Sequence record: EU863409
Strand: one strand, 5' to 3'
DNA: 64,000 nt
Origin: Escherichia phage JS10
This document shows, in pieces, positions 39,307-49,706 of the stretch (position 1 is its first letter; the number at the start of each line of letters is the position of its first letter). The notes under the pieces are model-generated. The model was not told where the DNA came from and searched no databases. It saw only the letters and a list, made by a program, of their open reading frames with translations. The translations under genes were made by a program, and so were the position numbers.

Positions 39307-40866
39307 ATGAAAAAGAATGCATTAGTTCAAAAATGGTCCGCTCTGCTGGAAAACGAAGCTCTTCCTGAAATCGTTGGTGCTTCTAAACAAGCTATCATCG
39401 CTAAAATTTTCGAAAACCAGGAACAAGACATCCTGACTGCCCCGGAATACCGTGACGAAAAAATCTCTGAAGCATTTGGTTCTTTCCTGACCGAAGCTGA
39501 AATCGGTGGTGACCACGGTTATGATGCTACCAATATCGCAGCTGGCCAGACCTCTGGTGCTGTAACTCAGATTGGGCCGGCAGTAATGGGTATGGTTCGT
39601 CGTGCTATTCCTCATCTGATTGCTTTTGATATTTGTGGTGTTCAGCCTCTGAATAACCCTACCGGCCAGGTATTTGCACTGCGTGCAGTATACGGTAAAG
39701 ACCCTATCGCTGCTGGCGCTAAAGAAGCTTTCCACCCGATGTATGCTCCGAATGCTATGTTCTCTGGTCAGGGCGCTGCTCAGACTTTTGAAGCACTGGC
39801 TGCAGGTAAAGTTCTGGAAGTTGGTAAAATTTATTCTCACTTCTTCGAAGCTACCGGTGCTGCACACTTCCAGGCTGTTGAAGCCGTAACCGTTGATGCT
39901 GCTGCTACTGATGCCGCTAAACTGGATGTTGCCGTAACCGCTCTGTTGGAAGCTGGTCAGCTGGCTGAATTGGCTGAAGGTATGGCTACTTCTATCGCTG
40001 AACTTCAGGAAGGCTTTAACGGTTCTCAGGATAACCCGTGGAACGAAATGGGCTTCCGTATCGATAAACAAGTTATCGAAGCTAAATCCCGTCAGCTGAA
40101 AGCAAGCTACTCCATCGAACTGGCACAGGACCTTCGTGCAGTACACGGTATGGATGCAGATGCTGAACTGTCCGGTATCCTTGCTACCGAAATTATGCTC
40201 GAAATCAACCGTGAAGTTATCGATTGGATTAACTACTCTGCACAGGTTGGTAAATCTGGTATGACCAACACCGTTGGCGCTAAAGCTGGTGTGTTTGACT
40301 TCCAGGACCCGATTGATATCCGTGGTGCTCGTTGGGCCGGTGAGAGCTTTAAAGCCCTTCTGTTCCAGATTGATAAAGAAGCAGCCGAAATCGCTCGTCA
40401 GACCGGTCGTGGTGCTGGTAACTTCATCATCGCTTCCCGTAACGTAGTTAACGTACTGGCTGCAGTTGATACTTCTGTAAGTTATGCAGCTCAAGGTCTG
40501 GGTCAAGGTTTCAACGTTGACACCACTAAAGCAGTATTTGCCGGTGTTCTTGGTGGTAAATATCGCGTTTACATCGACCAGTATGCCCGTGCTGATTACT
40601 TCACCATCGGTTATAAAGGTTCCAACGAAATGGACGCAGGTATCTACTACGCTCCTTACGTTGCACTTACCCCACTGCGCGGTTCCGATCCGAAGAACTT
40701 CCAGCCGGTAATGGGCTTCAAAACTCGTTACGGTATCGGTATTAACCCGTTCGCTGACCCGTCTGCACAGGCTCCTACCAAACGTATTCAGAGCGGTATG
40801 CCTGACATCGTTAACAGCCTCGGTCTGAATGGTTACTTCCGTCGCGTTTATGTTAAAGGTATCTAA
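39307..40866 (+). CDS. 23: gp23 major capsid protein
   Basis: 519 aa (T4 about 521); paralogous to downstream gp24 copies. Confidence 0.97.
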   Translation: MKKNALVQKWSALLENEALPEIVGASKQAIIAKIFENQEQDILTAPEYRDEKISEAFGSFLTEAEIGGDHGYDATNIAAGQTSGAVTQIGPAVMGMVRRAIPHLIAFDICGVQPLNNPTGQVFALRAVYGKDPIAAGAKEAFHPMYAPNAMFSGQGAAQTFEALAAGKVLEVGKIYSHFFEATGAAHFQAVEAVTVDAAATDAAKLDVAVTALLEAGQLAELAEGMATSIAELQEGFNGSQDNPWNEMGFRIDKQVIEAKSRQLKASYSIELAQDLRAVHGMDADAELSGILATEIMLEINREVIDWINYSAQVGKSGMTNTVGAKAGVFDFQDPIDIRGARWAGESFKALLFQIDKEAAEIARQTGRGAGNFIIASRNVVNVLAAVDTSVSYAAQGLGQGFNVDTTKAVFAGVLGGKYRVYIDQYARADYFTIGYKGSNEMDAGIYYAPYVALTPLRGSDPKNFQPVMGFKTRYGIGINPFADPSAQAPTKRIQSGMPDIVNSLGLNGYFRRVYVKGI

Positions 40867-41283: not shown

Positions 41284-42567
41284 ATGGCAAAGATTAACGA
41301 ATTACTGCGCGAGTCAACAACTACTACCAGCAACTCATTGGGTCGCCCTAATCTTGTTGCTTTGACCCGTGCTACCACTAAACTAATTTATCGCGATATC
41401 ATCGCTGAACAACGTACTAGTCAGCCTATTGCTGCATTGTATGGTGTCAAATATCTTACCCCTGATAATGAATTCAGTTTCCAAACTGGTGCTGTTTATG
41501 GTGGTGAAGTTGGTTCTAAAGACCGTGAAACTATCCCGGAACTCACAGATAAAGCCCAGGCGATTGCCAAGGGTGACTACTTTAAGTATCAGAATGTGGT
41601 TTATAAGGCTCTTCAAGCAAGCCCACTCGCATCCACTAGCGCTACAGGATTGGCCGATGCTCTTCAAGAAGGTTTGGTGTCATTAACATGTCGTCTGGTT
41701 CCTGATGCAGCCCATACCACTAAATTCGAAGCGAGTAATGTAGAAATCTCTGATGCTGTATTCCAGGTTAATAAATGGAATGCTCCTGTTAAGACCCGTA
41801 AATTGAAGACTGCTTTGACTGTAGAATTGGCACAGGATATGGAATCAAATGGCTTCGACGCCCCTGCATTCTTAGAAGACCTCCTGGCTACAGTAATGGC
41901 AGATGAAATTAATAAAGACGTTCTGCAATCTCTGATAACCGTATCTAAACGCTATAAAGTTACCGGTGTATCTGATAATGGCATCATCGATTTGACTTAT
42001 GATAGTGCTCCGGAATCTGCCCGTAAACTTTATGAAATTGTCTGTGAGATGAATTCTGAAATCCAGAAAACTACTTCTTATTCTGGTACGTTTGTTGTGG
42101 CTTCAAGTCGTGTGGCTGCAATGCTTGCAGGTTCTGGCTGGTTAAAACATAGACCTGAAGATAATAATTGGCTCCCGGAAACTGCCTATGGTTATTTGTT
42201 GAATGGATTACCACTGTTCTGTGACGTTAACAGCCCATTGGATTATGTTATCGTAGGTGTTAAAGAGAACTATGGTGGTAATGAAGTTGTCGGTTCTATT
42301 TTCTATGCCCCATATACAGAAGGCCTGGATTTAGACGACCCAGAACACGTTGGTGCTTATAAGGTTATTGTCGACCCGGATTCATTACAGCCTTCTATTT
42401 CTCTGATGGTTCGTTATGCACTTTCGGCTAACCCATACACCGTAGCTAAAGACGACAAAGAAGCTCGTATTATCGACGCAACCAATATGGATTTAATGGC
42501 GGGCCAGAGTAATATGTCTTATCTGCTTGGTGTTAAACTTCCAGCAATTATTTACGAGGCTGATTAA
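41284..42567 (+). CDS. 24: gp24 capsid vertex protein, copy A
   Basis: 427 aa (T4 about 427), gp23-like fold protein downstream of 23. Confidence 0.9.
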   Translation: MAKINELLRESTTTTSNSLGRPNLVALTRATTKLIYRDIIAEQRTSQPIAALYGVKYLTPDNEFSFQTGAVYGGEVGSKDRETIPELTDKAQAIAKGDYFKYQNVVYKALQASPLASTSATGLADALQEGLVSLTCRLVPDAAHTTKFEASNVEISDAVFQVNKWNAPVKTRKLKTALTVELAQDMESNGFDAPAFLEDLLATVMADEINKDVLQSLITVSKRYKVTGVSDNGIIDLTYDSAPESARKLYEIVCEMNSEIQKTTSYSGTFVVASSRVAAMLAGSGWLKHRPEDNNWLPETAYGYLLNGLPLFCDVNSPLDYVIVGVKENYGGNEVVGSIFYAPYTEGLDLDDPEHVGAYKVIVDPDSLQPSISLMVRYALSANPYTVAKDDKEARIIDATNMDLMAGQSNMSYLLGVKLPAIIYEAD

Positions 42568-43850
42568 TGTCTAAGATTATAGACCTAATTAAAGAATCCA
42601 CATTGACGGCTGCCAACTCGGTTGGCCGTCCTGCTCTTCTTTCATACACCCAAGCAACTAATAAACGAATCTTTAAAGCCCTAGTTGCTGAACAAAAAAC
42701 AAGCCAACCTGTTGCCGCTCTGTACGGGGTTCGTGTACTTAATCCTGACGACAAAATGACTTATCTTGGTGGCGCTACATTTGCAGGCCAGATTGGTATG
42801 TCGGAACGTGAAAATATTCCTGAATTTACCGATTCGTCTACAGCTTATGCAGCCGGCGATATGTTCCAGTTTGAAAGTGTAGTGTTTAAAGTTCTAGAAG
42901 CATCTCCTTTCGCCGGAACCACAGAAACCGACCTCGGTGAAGTTATTTCTGAAGCAGTGGCCGCTGGGCATATTCGTATGGTATCAGATGCTGCTATTAC
43001 TTCTAAATTTGAACAAGGCCACCCTGAAATTGCTGAAGCAGGCTTCCGTATTGACAAATGGCAATCTGAAGTTAAATCACGTAAACTGAAAACTTCATTG
43101 ACAGTCGAATTGGCCCAAGACCTAGAATCAAACGGGTTTAATGCTCCTAATTTCGTTGAAAATCTGCTAGGCATTCAAATGGCAGAAGAAATTAATAAGG
43201 ACGTATTACAGTCATTAATTACGGTGAGTTCTCGTTTTAAAGTCCAAGGTGTTTCTGAAAAGGGCGTATTAGACCTTACCAACCCACGTTACGATAATGC
43301 CCAGGACCGTGCTCGTACATTATATTATTACATGTGTGAGATGAACTCTGCCGTCCAACGTCAAACTTCTTTCGCCGGGACTTATGCAGTAGCTAGTTCT
43401 CGTTGTGCTGCTATTCTCGCCGCTTCCGGTTGGGTTGAGAAAAAGGAAGACCAAGACGAATTGGCTTATGGTGTATTAAAGAATGGTCTGCCTCTTTATG
43501 CCGATATGAATAGTCCATGTGATTATGTTATTGTTGGTGTAAATGCTCAGATGGGTGAAGGACAGACGGTCGCATCTTTATATTATGCGCCTTATACGGA
43601 AGGTTTGGATGTGGTTGATGAAGAAGGTGATACTTCAGTAGGTGAATTTAAGGTTATTGTTGACCCAGAAAGCTTACAACCTACAGTAGCATTGCTTGCT
43701 CGTTATGCATTGACTGCAAACCCTTATACCGTCGCTAAGGACGATAAAGAAGCCCGCATTATTGATGGCTCTGATATGGACAAAATGGCTAACCAAAGCC
43801 AGTTGAGTTCTTATCTTGGTGTAAAACTTCCTCCATTGGATAAAAACTAA
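42567..43850 (+). CDS. gp24 capsid vertex protein, copy B (diverged tandem paralog)
   Basis: 427 aa, roughly half identical to copy A by eye (shared LKTxLTVELAQD, EINKDVLQSLITVS, PYTVAKDDKEARIID). Confidence 0.9.
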   Translation: MSKIIDLIKESTLTAANSVGRPALLSYTQATNKRIFKALVAEQKTSQPVAALYGVRVLNPDDKMTYLGGATFAGQIGMSERENIPEFTDSSTAYAAGDMFQFESVVFKVLEASPFAGTTETDLGEVISEAVAAGHIRMVSDAAITSKFEQGHPEIAEAGFRIDKWQSEVKSRKLKTSLTVELAQDLESNGFNAPNFVENLLGIQMAEEINKDVLQSLITVSSRFKVQGVSEKGVLDLTNPRYDNAQDRARTLYYYMCEMNSAVQRQTSFAGTYAVASSRCAAILAASGWVEKKEDQDELAYGVLKNGLPLYADMNSPCDYVIVGVNAQMGEGQTVASLYYAPYTEGLDVVDEEGDTSVGEFKVIVDPESLQPTVALLARYALTANPYTVAKDDKEARIIDGSDMDKMANQSQLSSYLGVKLPPLDKN

Positions 43851-43877
43851 AAAGGGACCTCACGGTCCCTTTACTGT

Positions 43878-44886: not shown

Positions 44887-45255
44887 TTATTTGCTTCCAT
44901 AATCAATTTTAACTAATTTACCTTTAAGGTAACCATAATTTGAAGGTTTACAATCAGACATATACATGCTTTCTACCAGAGTGTGGTGCCTAGCATGGTG
45001 TATTTCTGTTTTCCACAACCCTATATTAGTAACTTCTTTGGCCCTTGGCATAACTATAACAAGTCCTAACCAAGATTTCCATATAACAGGACACAAATAC
45101 GGGTCCTTCAATGATGAGAATTCATGTTCTGTTATATTGCAATAGAGTCCAGTTAAAAACAGTTTCCAACTATAGAAGCTTGGTATCTTAATGGCGTATC
45201 GTTTCGTCAGGAAGACCTGCCGGGTTGCACCATTTCTTTTTCTGATAAATGGCAT
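44887..45255 (-). CDS. hypothetical protein with protein-kinase-like motifs
   Basis: 122 aa; GATRQVF...YAIK, then DCKPSN and IDYG at kinase-like spacing; too short for a full kinase; tentative. Confidence 0.45.
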
Positions 45256-45370
45256 AAAACCACCATAATAAATATAATTAAATAGAAGAGCTAGTAATCT
45301 TCTGTCACCAAGCCAAATGGTTTAACGGAAGGACCTAGACCCATTATAACACACCTAAATTTAAAGCATA

Positions 45371-45650: not shown

Positions 45651-46658
45651 ATGGCAGATTCTATTTTTGGTCATGACGGTCGAGGGACCTTTTCCGGTAT
45701 TGCTTTAAAGGAATCGGATACTGTTATCCCTTTTGAAAAAATTCTTACTAAAGAAAGTCTTATAAACCCGGCAAGATTGGTAGGGAGTAATTCGTATGGC
45801 TTAGGCTTGGTTAGTAAATCCGGAAGAGCTGAAGTTCTGGCCCATTTGGGGATAACCGAAGAAATGTTATCCCCTGGTATCCCTGGCCCTAAAGGTGAAA
45901 GCATTGTAGGACCGAGAGGCCCGGCTGGTCCTGTAGGCCCTGTGGGTCTAAATTGGAAAGGAACATGGAGTGCTGCAACAGCCTATGTTAAGGATGATGC
46001 AGTAGGGTACAATGGGGCTTCTTATTTTTGCGTTCAGGATTCTACCGGTAATAATCCTGCTGAAGAAAACAGCCTTTACTGGGCCTTATTGGCTTCTCAG
46101 GGTGCACAAGGCGAACAGGGTATCCCGGGTAAAGATGGTGAGCAGGGTCCGCAAGGTGTTCAAGGTCCTCCTGGGGTGGATGGGATTGATGGACTTGACG
46201 GAGCTACTGGCCCTCTAGGTCCTCAGGGTCCTCAAGGCGAACCTGGTAAAGATGGCACAGATTTGTTTTCATTCCATAAGTATACCAACGTTGCTGCTGG
46301 GTACGGTGAAATAAAAATACCTGGGGTCGCCAATACGGTTCTTAGAGTTAGATTGGTTAACAACCAAATAGAATACAGCATTTTAAGTAAAGGTGGGACT
46401 ACCCGATATTGTGATTATCACTTTGTTGCTCCTAGTGTTTCGGGTGGAACGGTTACTACCGGTGGCGGAACTAAGACTTTGTCTCCTACAGGCTCATTTG
46501 TTATAGTAAGTGCGGCATATAACGGGCTACGTCCTATTAATATAACCTTAAAGGAATGGGGTTCTAAAACAATTTCAGAAATAACAGTATTTCAACACGG
46601 GCGCAGTGTAGATTCTAATAAACCTATATTGGTTAAAATGGTTAGTTTCCCTTATTAA
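45651..46658 (+). CDS. collagen-like repeat protein with CBM5/12-like domain
   Basis: Two G-X-Y blocks flanking WSAATAYVKDDAVGYNGASYFCV...LYWALLA (chitin-binding type 3-like motif); C-terminal globular region. Confidence 0.75.
   Translation: MADSIFGHDGRGTFSGIALKESDTVIPFEKILTKESLINPARLVGSNSYGLGLVSKSGRAEVLAHLGITEEMLSPGIPGPKGESIVGPRGPAGPVGPVGLNWKGTWSAATAYVKDDAVGYNGASYFCVQDSTGNNPAEENSLYWALLASQGAQGEQGIPGKDGEQGPQGVQGPPGVDGIDGLDGATGPLGPQGPQGEPGKDGTDLFSFHKYTNVAAGYGEIKIPGVANTVLRVRLVNNQIEYSILSKGGTTRYCDYHFVAPSVSGGTVTTGGGTKTLSPTGSFVIVSAAYNGLRPINITLKEWGSKTISEITVFQHGRSVDSNKPILVKMVSFPY
46101..46256 (+). repeat. collagen G-X-Y triplet coding repeat
   Basis: About 17 consecutive GXY triplets. Confidence 0.8.
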
Positions 46659-46669
46659 TTGGAGGTAGC

Positions 46670-47530
46670 ATGTCTATACAAGTAAATGGACCTCATTATG
46701 AATTGGTTGGGAGAACGGTAACTCTTAGGGCTGTTTTATCTGAATCTTTAACTGACGCTGATATAAAATGGTACAAAAACGGTGTAAACGTTCCATTATT
46801 AGATAAAGAAGACCCGATGTATCTAAATCTTTGGGATGTAGGGTTTCCGGCTTCTGGGACCTATTATGCAATAGCAACCGATAAACTTACACAAGAGGTT
46901 TTTCAAAGCGACGATTTTGTTTTAGAAATAGGAATGGAGCCTAGAGATATAGTTATTTCCGTAGAAAATTTAGATGCTATCGTAAAGGCGGCCATAGGTC
47001 AAAAAGTTTCTTTACAACCTTTAATTTCTATGGGTGCCACGCCCTGGGCTGAAGTCGAGTGTGAATGGTGGAAATACGATAAAATGGTTTCAAATGTAAA
47101 GGATTTGGACGTTGATATAAATCCTTCTATGTACGGGACATATTCACTTAATGTTTCTGCTACCGCTGAAGGAGCCTATAATCCGTATCATGATATAGTT
47201 ACGGTAGATATCATGCCTTTAGATGGTATTTTACCAGAACCTGAAGTGTGTCCTTTTATATACTCGAATGATTTAAATCAATATTTGTCTTATCCTGGTG
47301 GAAGAAATAGGGCTCATATGTGGATAGGTTGGTGGGTATTGGATGAGATAAAAGGAGCCCTTGCTAAAGACCAGGATTGGGCTATCAATATAGAAGATAG
47401 CAATTTTAGGTATAAGTGTGAGCTCATGAAAGTGGCAGAACTTTTGTCACGATATCCTGATGTAGAAATACAGGAATCAAGAAATGGATACATTTTGAAT
47501 AGGAAGCACCTGACATTAAATGTCATATAA
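46670..47530 (+). CDS. Hoc-like Ig-domain protein (short paralog)
   Basis: Ig-like region (WYKNG...SGTYYAIATD) plus C-terminal about 70 aa similar to Hoc C-terminus (WIGWWVLDEI...YPDVEIQESRNGYIL). Confidence 0.7.
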   Translation: MSIQVNGPHYELVGRTVTLRAVLSESLTDADIKWYKNGVNVPLLDKEDPMYLNLWDVGFPASGTYYAIATDKLTQEVFQSDDFVLEIGMEPRDIVISVENLDAIVKAAIGQKVSLQPLISMGATPWAEVECEWWKYDKMVSNVKDLDVDINPSMYGTYSLNVSATAEGAYNPYHDIVTVDIMPLDGILPEPEVCPFIYSNDLNQYLSYPGGRNRAHMWIGWWVLDEIKGALAKDQDWAINIEDSNFRYKCELMKVAELLSRYPDVEIQESRNGYILNRKHLTLNVI

Positions 47531-47535
47531 CAAAA

Positions 47536-47562
47536 CGGGAGAGCGAAAGCTCTCCCGTTTTT
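47536..47562. terminator. bidirectional rho-independent terminator between convergent hoc-like genes
   Basis: CGGGAGAGC-gaaa-GCTCTCCCG, 9-bp stem, flanked by AAAA upstream and TTTTT downstream. Confidence 0.8.
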
Positions 47563-47574
47563 ATTTAGCCAAAA

Positions 47575-48984
47575 TTAGTAAAAATAAATTATACCTGTGT
47601 CAAGAGCCGAACGATGGATAATTCTTCCATTTCGTGATTCTTGTACATCAACCTCTGGATAATCCGCAACCATTTTTTGAAGAGTGTAGCGATGGAGATA
47701 ATAATTGCTATCTGGGTCATCAGTTTTCCAATCTTTACCTTCAAGTGTCATTTTCTGGATTTCATCCATAACCCACCAACCGGCCCAAATATACGCTGAA
47801 TTACGAACCGGCAGCGGATGGACGTAAGGTAGTTCGCCTTCCGGTTCAGGAGCAACTTTAGGCGTAATTGTTACATTACCAGATTTTTTGACAGTCACAG
47901 GATTATAGTCGGTAGCCGAAACCACAACAGAAACTTCAATAACCTGTGAACCTTCAGCACTTGTATCGACTACTAAAGTATCTGTGGTGCCGGCAACAGG
48001 TGAACCATCTTTCTTCCAAGAATATGCAAAAGTAGCACCAGCAGGCGCACCTGCTACGGTAGCTTTAAAAGAAGCTGGAGTTCCTTCCGGAGTATTAATA
48101 GAGGCCGGCGCTAAAGTAACAGAAACACCTGTCATGGTCTTTTTAGTAATTGTTACACTTCCGGTTTTGGTAACGGTTAAATCGTTATAATCCGTACCTT
48201 TTAGGACTACCGAAACTTCAATAGTGTAAGAACCTACTGTAGATGTATCAACAGCAAGGGTATTACTGCTTTCGCCCGGAATAATAGAACCATTTTTCTT
48301 CCAAGAATAAGTTGCATTTACGCCGGAAGGAGCGCCAACTACATCCGCTTTAAACTGTGCAGATGAGCCTTTCTCTGTACTAATTGAGGCTGGTGTTAAA
48401 GTAACGGAAGCACCTGATATAGTTTTCTTAACAAAAGTTACCGCAATACCTTTAGTAGCTGTAGCCGGGTCATATTCAGGGGCGGTAACAGTAACTTCAC
48501 AGTTCAACGTGTAATTTGCTTCTGCTGCTTCAGTTACAGTAATAGTTTTACCAGTTTGACCTGAAATTACAGTTGTATTACGTTTCCAAACATAAGCCAT
48601 TGTAGCGCCAGCAGGGACACCCGATACGTTAGCAGTAACAACTTGGGATTGACCGATTTCTTTAGAAACGGAAGTAGGGTCTAAGGTCAAAGAAAGAGCC
48701 CCAATGGTCTTATTAGCTACAGTAACTTCAAAAGTTTTTTCAGCTACCTCAGGTTCGCCTTCGGTCGGAGTAGAAGTTGCTACTACTTTTAAAACTTTCT
48801 TACCAGCTGGAGCCGCACCGGTATATCTCAAAACATTGGTGGCCTCTGGATTAGAAGCACCGTCAATGGTCCATACATATGTAACGGTTCCTTCTACAGC
48901 TGCACCTGTTGCGGTAGCAGTGTAGTTGGCGCTTTCGCCTATTTTAATAGACGCAGCGCCGGCTATACTTACAGTAAAAGCCAT
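47575..48984 (-). CDS. hoc: Hoc highly immunogenic outer capsid protein
   Basis: 469 aa: four tandem Ig-like modules of about 95 aa and C-terminal capsid-binding-like domain; position between rnlB and inh as in T4. Confidence 0.85.
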   Translation of the reverse strand: MAFTVSIAGAASIKIGESANYTATATGAAVEGTVTYVWTIDGASNPEATNVLRYTGAAPAGKKVLKVVATSTPTEGEPEVAEKTFEVTVANKTIGALSLTLDPTSVSKEIGQSQVVTANVSGVPAGATMAYVWKRNTTVISGQTGKTITVTEAAEANYTLNCEVTVTAPEYDPATATKGIAVTFVKKTISGASVTLTPASISTEKGSSAQFKADVVGAPSGVNATYSWKKNGSIIPGESSNTLAVDTSTVGSYTIEVSVVLKGTDYNDLTVTKTGSVTITKKTMTGVSVTLAPASINTPEGTPASFKATVAGAPAGATFAYSWKKDGSPVAGTTDTLVVDTSAEGSQVIEVSVVVSATDYNPVTVKKSGNVTITPKVAPEPEGELPYVHPLPVRNSAYIWAGWWVMDEIQKMTLEGKDWKTDDPDSNYYLHRYTLQKMVADYPEVDVQESRNGRIIHRSALDTGIIYFY

Positions 48985-48993
48985 ATTTTACCC

Positions 48994-49665
48994 TTATTTT
49001 AAAGTTACGAAAGATGAATTACGCGTTTCACGTACTAATACTGAACCATTACGATTAATGTAATAAATCAGACTGAATAGTGTTTGGTGGGCAGATGGGT
49101 GTTGGAAATCTTTAGGGCGTTCTTTCCAATCAGGGGTTTCGGTAATCCATTGATAAATCCACCAAGGCACGGTACAATACCCTGGGTTTTTACCAATGAG
49201 TAAAAGATTAGGGCTAAAGTTTTCAGGCAAAGAGAATACAGGTTTTTCCGATTCAATAACCTTGGTTACGGCCTCTTTGAATTTCTCTTCGACAAACGGA
49301 ACATCTTCTTCAATAATCTCTACCTTAGGAAGTTCGGCTACCTCAATAACTTCAACTACTGCTTCAGGGGCATCAAATAATAGGGTAGCTTCTTCTTTGG
49401 CAGGTTCCGCACCATCAACAAATTCGTTAGCGCCTGTGAGTTCGTCGGCGGCATCAATCAAATCAGAAATAGACAAACCTTCGGTTTCTGGAAGTGGTTC
49501 ATCAGCCAAGGCTTTAAGGCCTTCAGAGATATCGATAATCAAATTATCAAACGAACGGGTTTTCTTAAGTTTTAAACCGAATTGTTCGCCGTATTCGATT
49601 AACTTAGCTTTAGCTTCTTTTTTATCTTCGAGTGCACGAAGCTCTTCAATATATTGAGTATCCAT
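48994..49665 (-). CDS. inh: Inh-like protein (inhibitor of prohead protease), positional call
   Basis: 223 aa between hoc and uvsW as in T4; minus-strand late promoter upstream. Confidence 0.5.
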   Translation of the reverse strand: MDTQYIEELRALEDKKEAKAKLIEYGEQFGLKLKKTRSFDNLIIDISEGLKALADEPLPETEGLSISDLIDAADELTGANEFVDGAEPAKEEATLLFDAPEAVVEVIEVAELPKVEIIEEDVPFVEEKFKEAVTKVIESEKPVFSLPENFSPNLLLIGKNPGYCTVPWWIYQWITETPDWKERPKDFQHPSAHQTLFSLIYYINRNGSVLVRETRNSSFVTLK

Positions 49666-49698: not shown

Positions 49699-49706
49699 TA
49701 TTTATA
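49699..49706 (-). promoter_or_regulatory. late promoter box TATAAATA (inh-like gene)
   Basis: Exact octamer on minus strand about 34 bp upstream of start at 49665. Confidence 0.55.

What the first reader, a model, noticed from the sequence alone, without database searches (positions are those of the whole stretch)
46670..48984. Two convergent Hoc-like genes sharing a C-terminal capsid-binding-like domain
Seen: the minus-strand hoc (469 aa, four Ig-like modules) and the plus-strand 286-aa ORF end in a similar domain of about 70 aa (W(I/A)GWWV(L/M)DEI...YP(D/E)VD/E(I/V)QESRNG...). They converge on a shared bidirectional terminator (47536-47562). Inference: two decoration proteins competing for or sharing the same capsid site, with different displayed domains.
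Basis: partly seen in the sequence, partly recalled or inferred. Interest (0 to 1): 0.6.

Follow-up and report, generated by a model that had tools for sequence, protein, structure and literature searches.

The report
Second short Hoc gene, fibre-linked
This T4-like coliphage (JS10 or a near-identical phage) carries a second, shorter copy of the head-decoration protein Hoc. The copy is already annotated and the phenomenon is published, but it turns out to travel as a two-gene cassette with a collagen-like fibre gene.

Summary
A 286-aa ORF (46670..47530, +) and the 469-aa hoc (47575..48984, -) converge on a strong two-way terminator hairpin. They share a C-terminal domain: 40% identity over 75 aa, E=5.6e-21, z=29 against shuffles. 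That domain is homologous to the solved T4 Hoc capsid-binding domain, and nearly all published gp23-contact residues are kept (R300, W306, W309, W310, D313, ESRNG). The gp23 docking site is almost identical to T4's.

The short gene is under purifying selection (dN/dS 0.10). Shared or competing use of the hexamer-centre site is plausible but untested.

This is not new. The short protein is 100% identical to a JS10 protein already named 'hoc head outer capsid protein'. Two hoc genes are annotated in IME08, dhabil, VR25, CGG4-1 and Aeromonas phage 65. Fokine et al. 2023 describe phages with two Hoc proteins sharing the capsid-binding domain.

This holds in at least seven genera or lineages and at least four genomic contexts, often behind a T4 late promoter. 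The short Hoc may anchor a head fibre, but that is inference only. In passing, Inh appears to end in the same Hoc-type domain.

The parts
45651..46658 (+). Collagen-like fibre gene (335 aa). It has an N-terminal ~75-aa domain (MADSIFGHDGRG...LGIT), a collagen stalk, a CBM5/12-like module, more collagen, and a swappable C-terminal tip (residues 206-335). It is the first gene of the cassette.
   Evidence: Pfam Collagen 1.2e-10 and CBM_5_12 7e-5 (below Pfam's gathering cut-off, 23.2 vs 26.2 bits). phrog_5073 'tail fiber' 1e-69. The N-domain is found in only 21 of 50,697 phage records. Alignments A2 and A3. The tip is shared with siphovirus fibres and with VR25.
46670..47530 (+). Short Hoc paralogue ('hoc2', 286 aa, pI 4.5). 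Ig domain D1 is residues 1-91 (46670-46942). Ig domain D2 is residues 92-185 (46943-47224). The long beta1-beta2 loop and the capsid-binding-type C-domain are residues ~190-286 (47237-47527). WW is at 47330-47335 and ESRNG at 47474-47488.
   Evidence: AF2 model with pLDDT 81.6 shows two Ig domains plus a beta/helix/helix/beta C-domain. The Foldseek top hit is RB49 Hoc 3SHS. 100% identical to JS10 'hoc head outer capsid protein'. dN/dS 0.096.
47532..47561 (.). Bidirectional intrinsic terminator hairpin shared by the two convergent hoc genes.
   Evidence: -23.1 and -22.7 kcal/mol, z=-7.8 and -6.2. A functional equivalent of different sequence sits at the same place in IME08.
47575..48984 (-). 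Canonical hoc (469 aa). Four Ig-like modules at 47866-48984 and a T4-type capsid-binding domain at 47578-47850.
   Evidence: PDB T4 Hoc 2e-112; C-domain 87% identical to T4. Module analysis. Pfam Ig_3 / I-set.
48994..49665 (-). inh (prohead protease inhibitor, 223 aa), co-transcribed with hoc. Its C-terminal ~60 aa (49009-49194) resemble the Hoc capsid-binding domain.
   Evidence: phrog_1051 6e-91 and phrog_1149 9e-5. hhalign 74-78% probability. The AF2 model's best PDB hit is 8t1x_X, the Hoc C-domain.
49699..49706 (-). T4-type late promoter TATAAATA, 34 nt upstream of inh. It is the likely promoter of the inh-hoc late transcript.
   Evidence: 19 exact matches in the window against 8.1 expected.
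39307..40866 (+). gp23 major capsid protein, the presumed docking partner. Its Hoc-binding stretch (T4 G326-R344) is identical to T4 except S327A.
   Evidence: alignment to PDB 6uzc/5vf3. The contact residues D336, P337 and R344 named in PMC10385173 are conserved.

Best explanation
The 286-aa ORF is a functional, anciently diverged paralogue of Hoc. It has two Ig-like domains on a Hoc-type capsid-binding domain. Most likely it is a virion decoration protein that docks as a monomer at the centre of gp23* hexamers through the same contacts as T4 Hoc. Those contacts are the Trp-Trp at the start of helix 1, the Arg in the beta1-beta2 loop, and the ESRNG loop held by an Asp-Arg salt bridge. It would therefore share the one-per-hexamer sites with the long four-Ig Hoc, giving a mixed coat of two adhesins. 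The mix would be set by relative expression and affinity.

It is not a local duplicate of the neighbouring hoc. It is the second gene of a mobile two-gene cassette (collagen-like fibre, then short Hoc) that is exchanged as a unit among T4-like phages. The two hoc genes end at a shared bidirectional terminator. The long hoc is transcribed with inh from a late promoter.

Shown: homology, conserved contact residues, a conserved gp23 site, purifying selection, cassette linkage, and the terminator. Inferred: presence in the virion, the binding site, and competition.
For: - Homology to the solved T4 Hoc: E=1e-16 for the short ORF and 2e-112 for the long one. phrog_1149 for both.
- Contact residues listed in PMC10385173, mapped: Y293=Y198, R300=R212, W306=W218, W309/W310=W221/W222, D313=D225, Q354=Q268, E355-G359=E269-G273, Y360=Y274. 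Only H295->N and Y304->H change.
- The gp23 docking stretch is identical to T4 except S327A.
- The AF2 model shows two Ig domains plus a C-domain with the T4 secondary-structure order. The top PDB fold match is RB49 Hoc. The pI of 4.5 is typical of Hoc.
- dN/dS is 0.096, from 47 synonymous and 20 non-synonymous differences against Esco_phi_B-01.
- The ORF is intact in Dhakavirus, Gaprivervirus, Gelderlandvirus, Roskildevirus, Ishigurovirus and metagenome contigs.
- An exact late promoter TATAAATA lies 42-43 nt upstream of the cassette in ABTNLsp5, TH15 and contig ERZ794946, and 75 nt upstream in Phynn. In Cronus and FBB1 the cassette directly follows gene 24.
Against: - No virion proteomics or cryo-EM for any phage with this gene could be found or read. 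The JS98 paper is not held.
- In this window there is no exact or one-mismatch TATAAATA within 370 nt upstream of the cassette. A terminator hairpin follows g24b at 43851-43872. Timing and level of expression are therefore unknown.
- The C-domain is only 38-39% identical to T4 and to the resident Hoc. It has a 7-8-residue insertion in the beta1-beta2 loop that carries a contact Arg. That loop is modelled at low confidence (pLDDT <50 at residues 187-193 and 206-212). Affinity or orientation may differ.
Confidence: 0.62

Rival explanations
1. Adaptor model, compatible with capsid binding. The short Hoc is mainly the capsid anchor for the collagen-like fibre encoded just upstream. Its C-domain docks on gp23* hexamers and its distal Ig domain D1 holds the fibre's N-terminal domain. 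These phages would then carry collagen-like head fibres tipped with exchangeable carbohydrate- or receptor-binding domains.
For: - Every intact fibre gene with the GHDGRG-type N-domain is followed at once, on the same strand, by a Hoc-type gene. The gap is 1-11 nt or the genes overlap. The phages are window/JS10, Esco_phi_B-01, dhabil, dhaeg, CLB_P2, Ec2-ASingh, ABTNLsp5, TH15, CGG4-1, Cronus, IT22, FBB1, Phynn, Aeromonas 65, 65.2, AS4, GomatiRiver_11 and AhFM11, plus contigs ERZ794946 and ERZ27235502.
- The pair sits in at least four different genomic contexts.
- The N-domain occurs in only 21 of 50,697 phage records.
- Within Dhakavirus the flanking genes are 83-99% identical, but the fibre N-domain (39-49%) and the short Hoc (41-51%) have diverged together.
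- The distal D1 is more conserved than D2 (32.9% vs 26.2% mean pairwise identity).
- Cronus keeps D1 plus the C-domain with an intact fibre. PspYZU05 lost D1 and its fibre is a 49-aa remnant. VR25 has both a divergent D1 and a divergent fibre N-terminus.
- AP1 keeps only a 78-aa fibre remnant and has no Hoc downstream.
- SPP1 gp12 is a precedent for a collagen-like trimer on hexamer centres (PMC7602432).
Against: - There is no direct evidence of interaction. A complex prediction was not possible with the tools.
- The number of independent lineages is small and the correlations partly reflect shared ancestry.
- IME08 keeps an intact short Hoc with only a 24-aa fibre remnant, so the Hoc can persist alone.
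- Against Esco_phi_B-01, hoc2 (dS 0.32) and the fibre gene (dS 0.017) have different histories. Alleles are therefore interchangeable without strict co-adaptation.
- A monomer-to-trimer mismatch would have to be accommodated.
- The fibre could equally attach elsewhere, such as the neck or tail, and merely be co-transferred.
Confidence: 0.3
2. Different-site model. The short Hoc's divergent C-domain, with a longer beta1-beta2 loop and a conserved Cys pair, recognises another capsid position or state than the long Hoc. Examples would be a subset of hexamers, or capsomers next to the duplicated vertex proteins gp24/gp24b. The two proteins would then not compete.
For: - The C-domains of the two resident Hocs are only 39% identical, while the long Hoc is 87% identical to T4.
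- There is a loop insertion, H295->N and Y304->H changes, and a Cys194/Cys250 pair conserved in most cassette-type Hocs and absent from T4-type Hocs.
- Gene 24 is duplicated in this phage at 57% identity.
- In T4, Hoc orientation already depends on capsomer position (PMC10385173).
Against: - The residues nearest the capsomer axis, which contact all six subunits (ESRNG and WW), are invariant.
- C-domains of this type (37-41% identity to the window's short Hoc) appear to be the only Hoc in many T4-like phages, such as S16, STML-198 and Acj9 (single Hoc-type match per record). There they presumably occupy the normal site.
- PspYZU05's only detected Hoc gene is of this type.
Confidence: 0.12
3. 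The short ORF is a decaying or unexpressed duplicate with no function.
For: There is no canonical late promoter directly upstream in this window. The gene is dispensable in many Dhakaviruses, where only one Hoc place per record is found, e.g. QL01 and WG01.
Against: dN/dS is 0.096 despite dS of 0.32. The ORF is intact with a strong Shine-Dalgarno sequence. All key motifs are conserved across two subfamilies. Relatives have late promoters.
Confidence: 0.03

Closest known systems
T4 Hoc (highly immunogenic outer capsid protein; PDB 5VF3, 8T1X, 8T9R; RB49 Hoc 3SHS)
   Same: [quoted passage not shown] The pI is acidic. gp23 has an almost identical docking site.
   Different: It has two Ig domains instead of three or four, and they are unrelated in sequence to those of the resident Hoc. 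The C-domain is only 38% identical, with a 7-8-residue loop insertion and an extra Cys pair. It is encoded on the opposite strand, behind a collagen-like fibre gene.
Second Hoc-like proteins of Serratia phage Muldoon (314 aa, two Ig domains plus C-domain) and Enterobacter phage PG7, described by Fokine et al. 2023 (PMC10385173)
   Same: One phage encodes two proteins that share the Hoc capsid-binding domain but display different modules. The published idea is that the domain is reused to functionalise the capsid.
   Different: In Muldoon the two hoc genes are tandem and co-oriented after inh, with no fibre gene. Here the short Hoc belongs to a separate fibre-Hoc cassette convergent on hoc.
Annotated 'hoc-2', 'Hoc I' or second 'hoc' genes of JS10, IME08, dhabil, VR7/VR25, CGG4-1 and Aeromonas phage 65
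   Same: They are the same gene family and the same fibre-plus-short-Hoc arrangement. The window protein is 100% identical to the JS10 entry.
   Different: Nothing in kind differs. The window allele is only ~50% identical to other Dhakavirus alleles.
SPP1 gp12, a collagen-like trimer that binds reversibly to hexamer centres
   Same: It is a collagen-like protein on a phage head. This bears on what the cassette's fibre might be.
   Different: gp12 binds the capsid directly and is tiny. The fibre here has a distinct N-domain, CBM-like modules and a globular tip. If it is on the head at all, it would need the short Hoc or another anchor. No sequence relationship was tested.

Membership tests
Hoc family (T4-type head outer capsid decoration proteins, phrog_1149) | C-terminal domain homologous to the T4 Hoc capsid-binding domain (T4 residues ~281-376) | tested here: met
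   phmmer against PDB T4 Hoc: E=1e-16, residues 122-284 aligned to 218-370. phrog_1149 3.7e-44 and phrog_21694 2e-10. Against the resident Hoc C-domain: E=5.6e-21, z=28.9.
Hoc family (T4-type head outer capsid decoration proteins, phrog_1149) | Conserved capsid-contact residues: ESRNG loop, Trp-Trp at helix 1, Arg300, Asp313 | tested here: met
   E269-S-R-N-G273, W221/W222, R212 and D225 are present. Y293, W306, Q354 and Y360 are also kept. H295->N and Y304->H. The residue list is from PMC10385173.
Hoc family (T4-type head outer capsid decoration proteins, phrog_1149) | N-terminal string of Ig-like domains | tested here: met
   The AF2 model shows two beta-sandwich domains (residues 1-90 and 92-183, pLDDT mostly 81-95). 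The Foldseek top hit is RB49 Hoc Ig domains 3SHS at 3.9e-13, followed by tandem-Ig proteins. Pfam Ig models do not reach threshold for this protein.
Hoc family (T4-type head outer capsid decoration proteins, phrog_1149) | One monomer bound at the centre of each gp23* hexamer of the expanded capsid | not testable with these tools
   The only indirect support is that the gp23 docking stretch is identical to T4 except S327A.
Hoc family (T4-type head outer capsid decoration proteins, phrog_1149) | Late expression and presence in virions | tested here: inconclusive
   There is no TATAAATA upstream of the cassette in the window. An exact late promoter is present in ABTNLsp5, TH15, ERZ794946 and Phynn. 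No proteomic data were accessible.
Fibre-short-Hoc cassette (defined here from the comparisons) | A co-oriented gene immediately upstream encodes a fibre with the N-terminal GHDGRG-type domain, and the Hoc gene starts within ~11 nt or overlaps it | tested here: met
   In the window the fibre gene stops at 46658 and hoc2 starts at 46670. The same layout occurs in about 20 phages or contigs.
Bidirectional intrinsic terminator | A GC-rich hairpin flanked by an A-run and a T-run, so that either strand reads hairpin plus U-tract | tested here: met
   Whether it actually terminates transcription is not testable here.
Tandem hoc duplication (Muldoon type) | The second hoc is co-oriented and adjacent to the first, downstream of inh | tested here: not met
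   The window genes are convergent. The short Hoc's Ig domains show no similarity to the long Hoc's modules (z<=4.8), and the C-domains are only 39% identical. Muldoon layout.

The most novel reading that the evidence does not exclude
The short Hoc is a capsid adaptor. Its conserved distal Ig domain holds the N-terminal domain of the collagen-like fibre encoded just upstream. A scattered set of T4-like phages (Dhaka-, Gapriver-, Gelderland-, Roskilde- and Ishigurovirus, and others) would then carry collagen-like head fibres with swappable carbohydrate- or receptor-binding tips, delivered as a mobile two-gene late cassette. More broadly, the Hoc capsid-binding module would be a general docking handle reused by hoc, hoc2 and even inh.
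Probability: 0.28. Interest if true: 0.65.

Novelty: already known. Interest (0 to 1): 0.33.

Why it matters
Hoc mediates phage adherence to mucus and bacterial surfaces and is the main display platform of T4 nanoparticle vaccines. If two Hoc types really share the hexamer-centre sites, the surface of these therapeutic-type coliphages is a tunable mixture of adhesins. JS10 and the related JS98-like phages are, from my own knowledge, candidates studied for oral treatment of diarrhoea.

If the short Hoc anchors a collagen-like fibre, T4-like phages would have a previously unrecognised class of head fibre. That would also offer a natural two-component display system. Both ideas can be tested directly with existing T4 in vitro binding assays and cryo-EM.

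Tried and rejected
- Chance similarity is rejected (z=28.9).
- A recent local inverted duplication of hoc is rejected. The C-domains are 39% identical, the Ig domains are unrelated, and the short Hoc groups with cassette Hocs of other genera.
- A pseudogene is rejected (dN/dS 0.096).
- Promoter search upstream of the cassette in the window. There is no exact or one-mismatch late promoter nearer than 45267-45280. One sigma70-like site (45249-45278) is not above chance. Read-through from gene 24 is unlikely because of a hairpin at 43851-43872.
- Widening the co-occurrence test. The IMG/VR scan returned only four isolates already known. The first metagenome scan found nothing and the second found one new contig. 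The profile search of the 5.8-billion-protein set with the fibre N-domain returned only four short fragments. My first Hoc2 search used too strict an E-value and returned six proteins.
- Literature. The JS98 genome paper could not be read. Searches for hoc2, Dhakavirus proteomics, VR7 proteome, collagen plus Hoc, and Inh plus Hoc gave nothing relevant beyond PMC10385173 and PMC7602432.
- Pfam and NCBIfam have no model that names the Hoc C-domain in the copies used.
- A complex prediction of Hoc2 with the fibre, or with a gp23 hexamer, could not be run with the available tool.
Full report
**What is there.** The window is a T4-like coliphage of the genus Dhakavirus.
- The region is 96.6% identical to Escherichia phage Esco_phi_B-01.
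- The 286-aa protein is 100% identical to 'hoc head outer capsid protein [Escherichia phage JS10]' on a 171,451-bp contig. The window is therefore JS10 or a near-identical phage.
- The gene order is: g23 (39307..40866), two g24 paralogues, rnlB (-), a 122-aa ORF (-), a 24.3-like ORF (-), a collagen-like 'tail fibre' gene (45651..46658, +), the short hoc (46670..47530, +), hoc (47575..48984, -), inh (48994..49665, -), uvsW (+).
- This is the T4 order with the two plus-strand genes inserted.

**Check of the observation.** All parts hold.
- The two proteins align at E=4e-20.
- The C-terminal domains alone give 40% identity over 75 residues, E=5.6e-21, z=28.9 against 2000 shuffles.
- The long Hoc has four mutually similar ~93-aa Ig modules plus a 96-aa C-domain, one module more than T4 Hoc.
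- The 44-nt spacer holds a 13-bp hairpin with a GAAA loop. It folds at -23.1 and -22.7 kcal/mol on the two strands (z=-7.8 and -6.2), with U-tracts both ways.
- IME08 has a different hairpin at the same place. Esco_phi_B-01 has the same stem with the loop flipped.

**What the short protein is.**
- Both proteins fall in PHROG 1149, 'Hoc-like head decoration', and match the solved T4 Hoc.
- The long Hoc's C-domain is 87% identical to T4. The short one's is 38% identical to T4 and 39% to its neighbour.
- Fokine et al. 2023 (PMC10385173) list the T4 Hoc residues that touch gp23*. In the short Hoc, Y293, R300, W306, W309, W310, D313, Q354, E355-G359 and Y360 are all conserved. H295 becomes N and Y304 becomes H. 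The beta1-beta2 loop is 7-8 residues longer.
- The gp23 stretch that Hoc binds (T4 G326-R344) is identical here except S327A.
- An AlphaFold2 model (pLDDT 81.6) shows two Ig domains and a C-domain with the strand-helix-helix-strand order of T4 Hoc. Its best PDB match is RB49 Hoc.
- The gene is under purifying selection: dN/dS 0.096, from 47 synonymous and 20 non-synonymous differences to Esco_phi_B-01.
- Its Ig domains show no significant similarity to those of the long Hoc.
- Together this supports a functional Hoc paralogue able to dock at hexamer centres. Virion presence and competition remain inferences.

**Expression.**
- A T4 late promoter (TATAAATA, 49706..49699, minus strand) precedes inh-hoc.
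- No such box lies upstream of the fibre-hoc2 pair in the window. A hairpin after g24b argues against read-through.
- Relatives do have an exact TATAAATA: 42-43 nt before the fibre gene in ABTNLsp5, TH15 and a metagenome phage, and 75 nt before it in Phynn.
- In Cronus and FBB1 the pair follows gene 24 directly.
- The cassette is therefore generally a late, structural-type unit. Its timing in this phage is unresolved.

**Prior knowledge.**
- Two hoc genes are annotated in IME08, dhabil, dhaeg, CLB_P2, VR25, ABTNLsp5 ('Hoc I'), CGG4-1 and Aeromonas phage 65 ('hoc-2, second copy of the hoc gene').
- Fokine et al. 2023 note that Muldoon and PG7 encode two Hoc-like proteins. They propose reuse of the capsid-binding domain to functionalise the capsid.
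- The finding as written is therefore already known, though never tested experimentally as far as I could find.

- The short Hoc is always preceded on the same strand by a collagen-like fibre gene, at 1-11 nt or overlapping.
- The fibre's ~75-aa N-terminal domain (M-A-D-x-x-L-F-G-H-D-G-R-G ... L-G-I-T) occurs in only 21 of 50,697 phage records.
- Every intact fibre with this domain is followed by a Hoc-type gene. This holds in Dhakavirus, Gaprivervirus, Gelderlandvirus, Roskildevirus, Ishigurovirus, Phynn, other Aeromonas phages and two metagenome lineages.
- The pair sits in at least four genomic contexts: after g24, between 24.3 and hoc, near tk, and near a NAMPT gene.
- Within Dhakavirus the flanks are 83-99% identical, but the fibre N-domain (39-49%) and the short Hoc (41-51%) differ as a block.
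- The fibre tip is modular. The window's tip (residues 206-335) matches siphovirus fibres and the VR25 cassette fibre rather than the other cassette fibres.
- Decay patterns: IME08 keeps the Hoc with a 24-aa fibre remnant. PspYZU05 has a 49-aa remnant and a 132-aa Hoc that lacks D1. AP1 has a 78-aa remnant and no Hoc. Cronus keeps D1 plus the C-domain with an intact fibre. VR25 has both a divergent D1 and a divergent fibre N-terminus.
- The distal domain D1 is more conserved than D2 (32.9% against 26.2%).
- These patterns fit, but do not prove, a model in which the short Hoc anchors the fibre to the head. SPP1 gp12 shows that collagen-like trimers can sit on hexamer centres (PMC7602432).
- Against strict co-adaptation: hoc2 and the fibre gene have different divergence from Esco_phi_B-01 (dS 0.32 against 0.017).

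**Side observation on Inh.** The C-terminal ~60 residues of Inh resemble the Hoc capsid-binding domain.
- PHROG 1149 matches at E=9e-5.
- Profile-profile comparison gives 74-78% probability, E about 2e-5.
- An AF2 model of Inh has the T4 Hoc C-domain (8t1x_X) as its only notable PDB match: probability 0.99, target TM 0.56, rmsd 3.3 A over 82 columns, but E=0.086. Model confidence in that part is moderate.
- If real, three neighbouring genes end in the same module.

**Verdict.** The added value is the conserved fibre-short-Hoc cassette, and the testable idea that the short Hoc is an adaptor for a head fibre.

Noticed in passing
window 48994-49665 (-), especially 49009-49194: The C-terminal ~60 residues of Inh (prohead protease inhibitor) appear homologous to the Hoc capsid-binding domain, with WW, DWK and ETRNS motifs. 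Evidence: phrog_1149 E=9e-5; hhalign 74-78% probability; the AF2 model's only notable PDB hit is T4 Hoc C-domain 8t1x_X (probability 0.99, TMt 0.56, E=0.086). hoc2, hoc and inh may therefore all end in the same module. I found no mention of this in the searchable literature.
   Followed up: partly
window 45651-46658 (+): The collagen-like fibre is modular. Its N-domain is shared only with cassette fibres of other T4-like phages. It also has CBM5/12-like modules. Its C-terminal tip (residues 206-335) is 39-56% identical to fibres of ~47-50-kb siphoviruses (RobRod40, AugustePiccard, e4/1c) and of VR25/VR26, which indicates tip-domain exchange.
   Followed up: partly
window 41284-42567 and 42567-43850 (+): Tandem duplication of the vertex protein gene 24. 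Both copies are 427 aa and are 57% identical. Cronus, IT22 and IME08 also have it. Whether it relates to having two Hoc types is unknown.
   Followed up: no
window 44887-45256 (-): A ~370-nt insertion relative to Esco_phi_B-01 carries a 122-aa ORF (phrog_4301, unknown function) between rnlB and the 24.3-like gene.
   Followed up: partly
window 47545-47548 versus L016 (Esco_phi_B-01): The terminator hairpin has the same stem in both phages, but the 4-nt loop is reverse-complemented (GAAA against UUUC).
   Followed up: no
window 45651-47530 versus L016: A recombination mosaic lies inside the cassette. The fibre gene is 99.5% identical to Esco_phi_B-01 (dS 0.017), while the adjacent hoc2 is 92.2% identical (dS 0.32). 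hoc has dS 0.084.
   Followed up: partly
window 47249-47251 and 47417-47419 (Hoc2 Cys194, Cys250): Cassette-type Hoc C-domains carry a Cys pair that is conserved in most of them (Phynn and contig ERZ794946 lack both, Cronus lacks the second). T4-type Hocs lack it. It may form a disulfide or a metal site. Distances in the model could not be measured with the tools.
   Followed up: no
L002 (IME08) 2851-2925 and 233-1420: IME08 keeps only a 24-aa remnant of the fibre gene upstream of its short hoc. A 395-aa collagen/CBM 'tail fiber-like' ORF lacking the N-domain sits between g24b and rnlB. This suggests a rearrangement that split the fibre gene.
   Followed up: partly
window 43851-43872: A second bidirectional terminator-like hairpin (AAAGGGACC-TCAC-GGTCCCTTT) lies between the convergent g24b and rnlB. 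Its sequence is similar to the IME08 hoc2/hoc hairpin.
   Followed up: no
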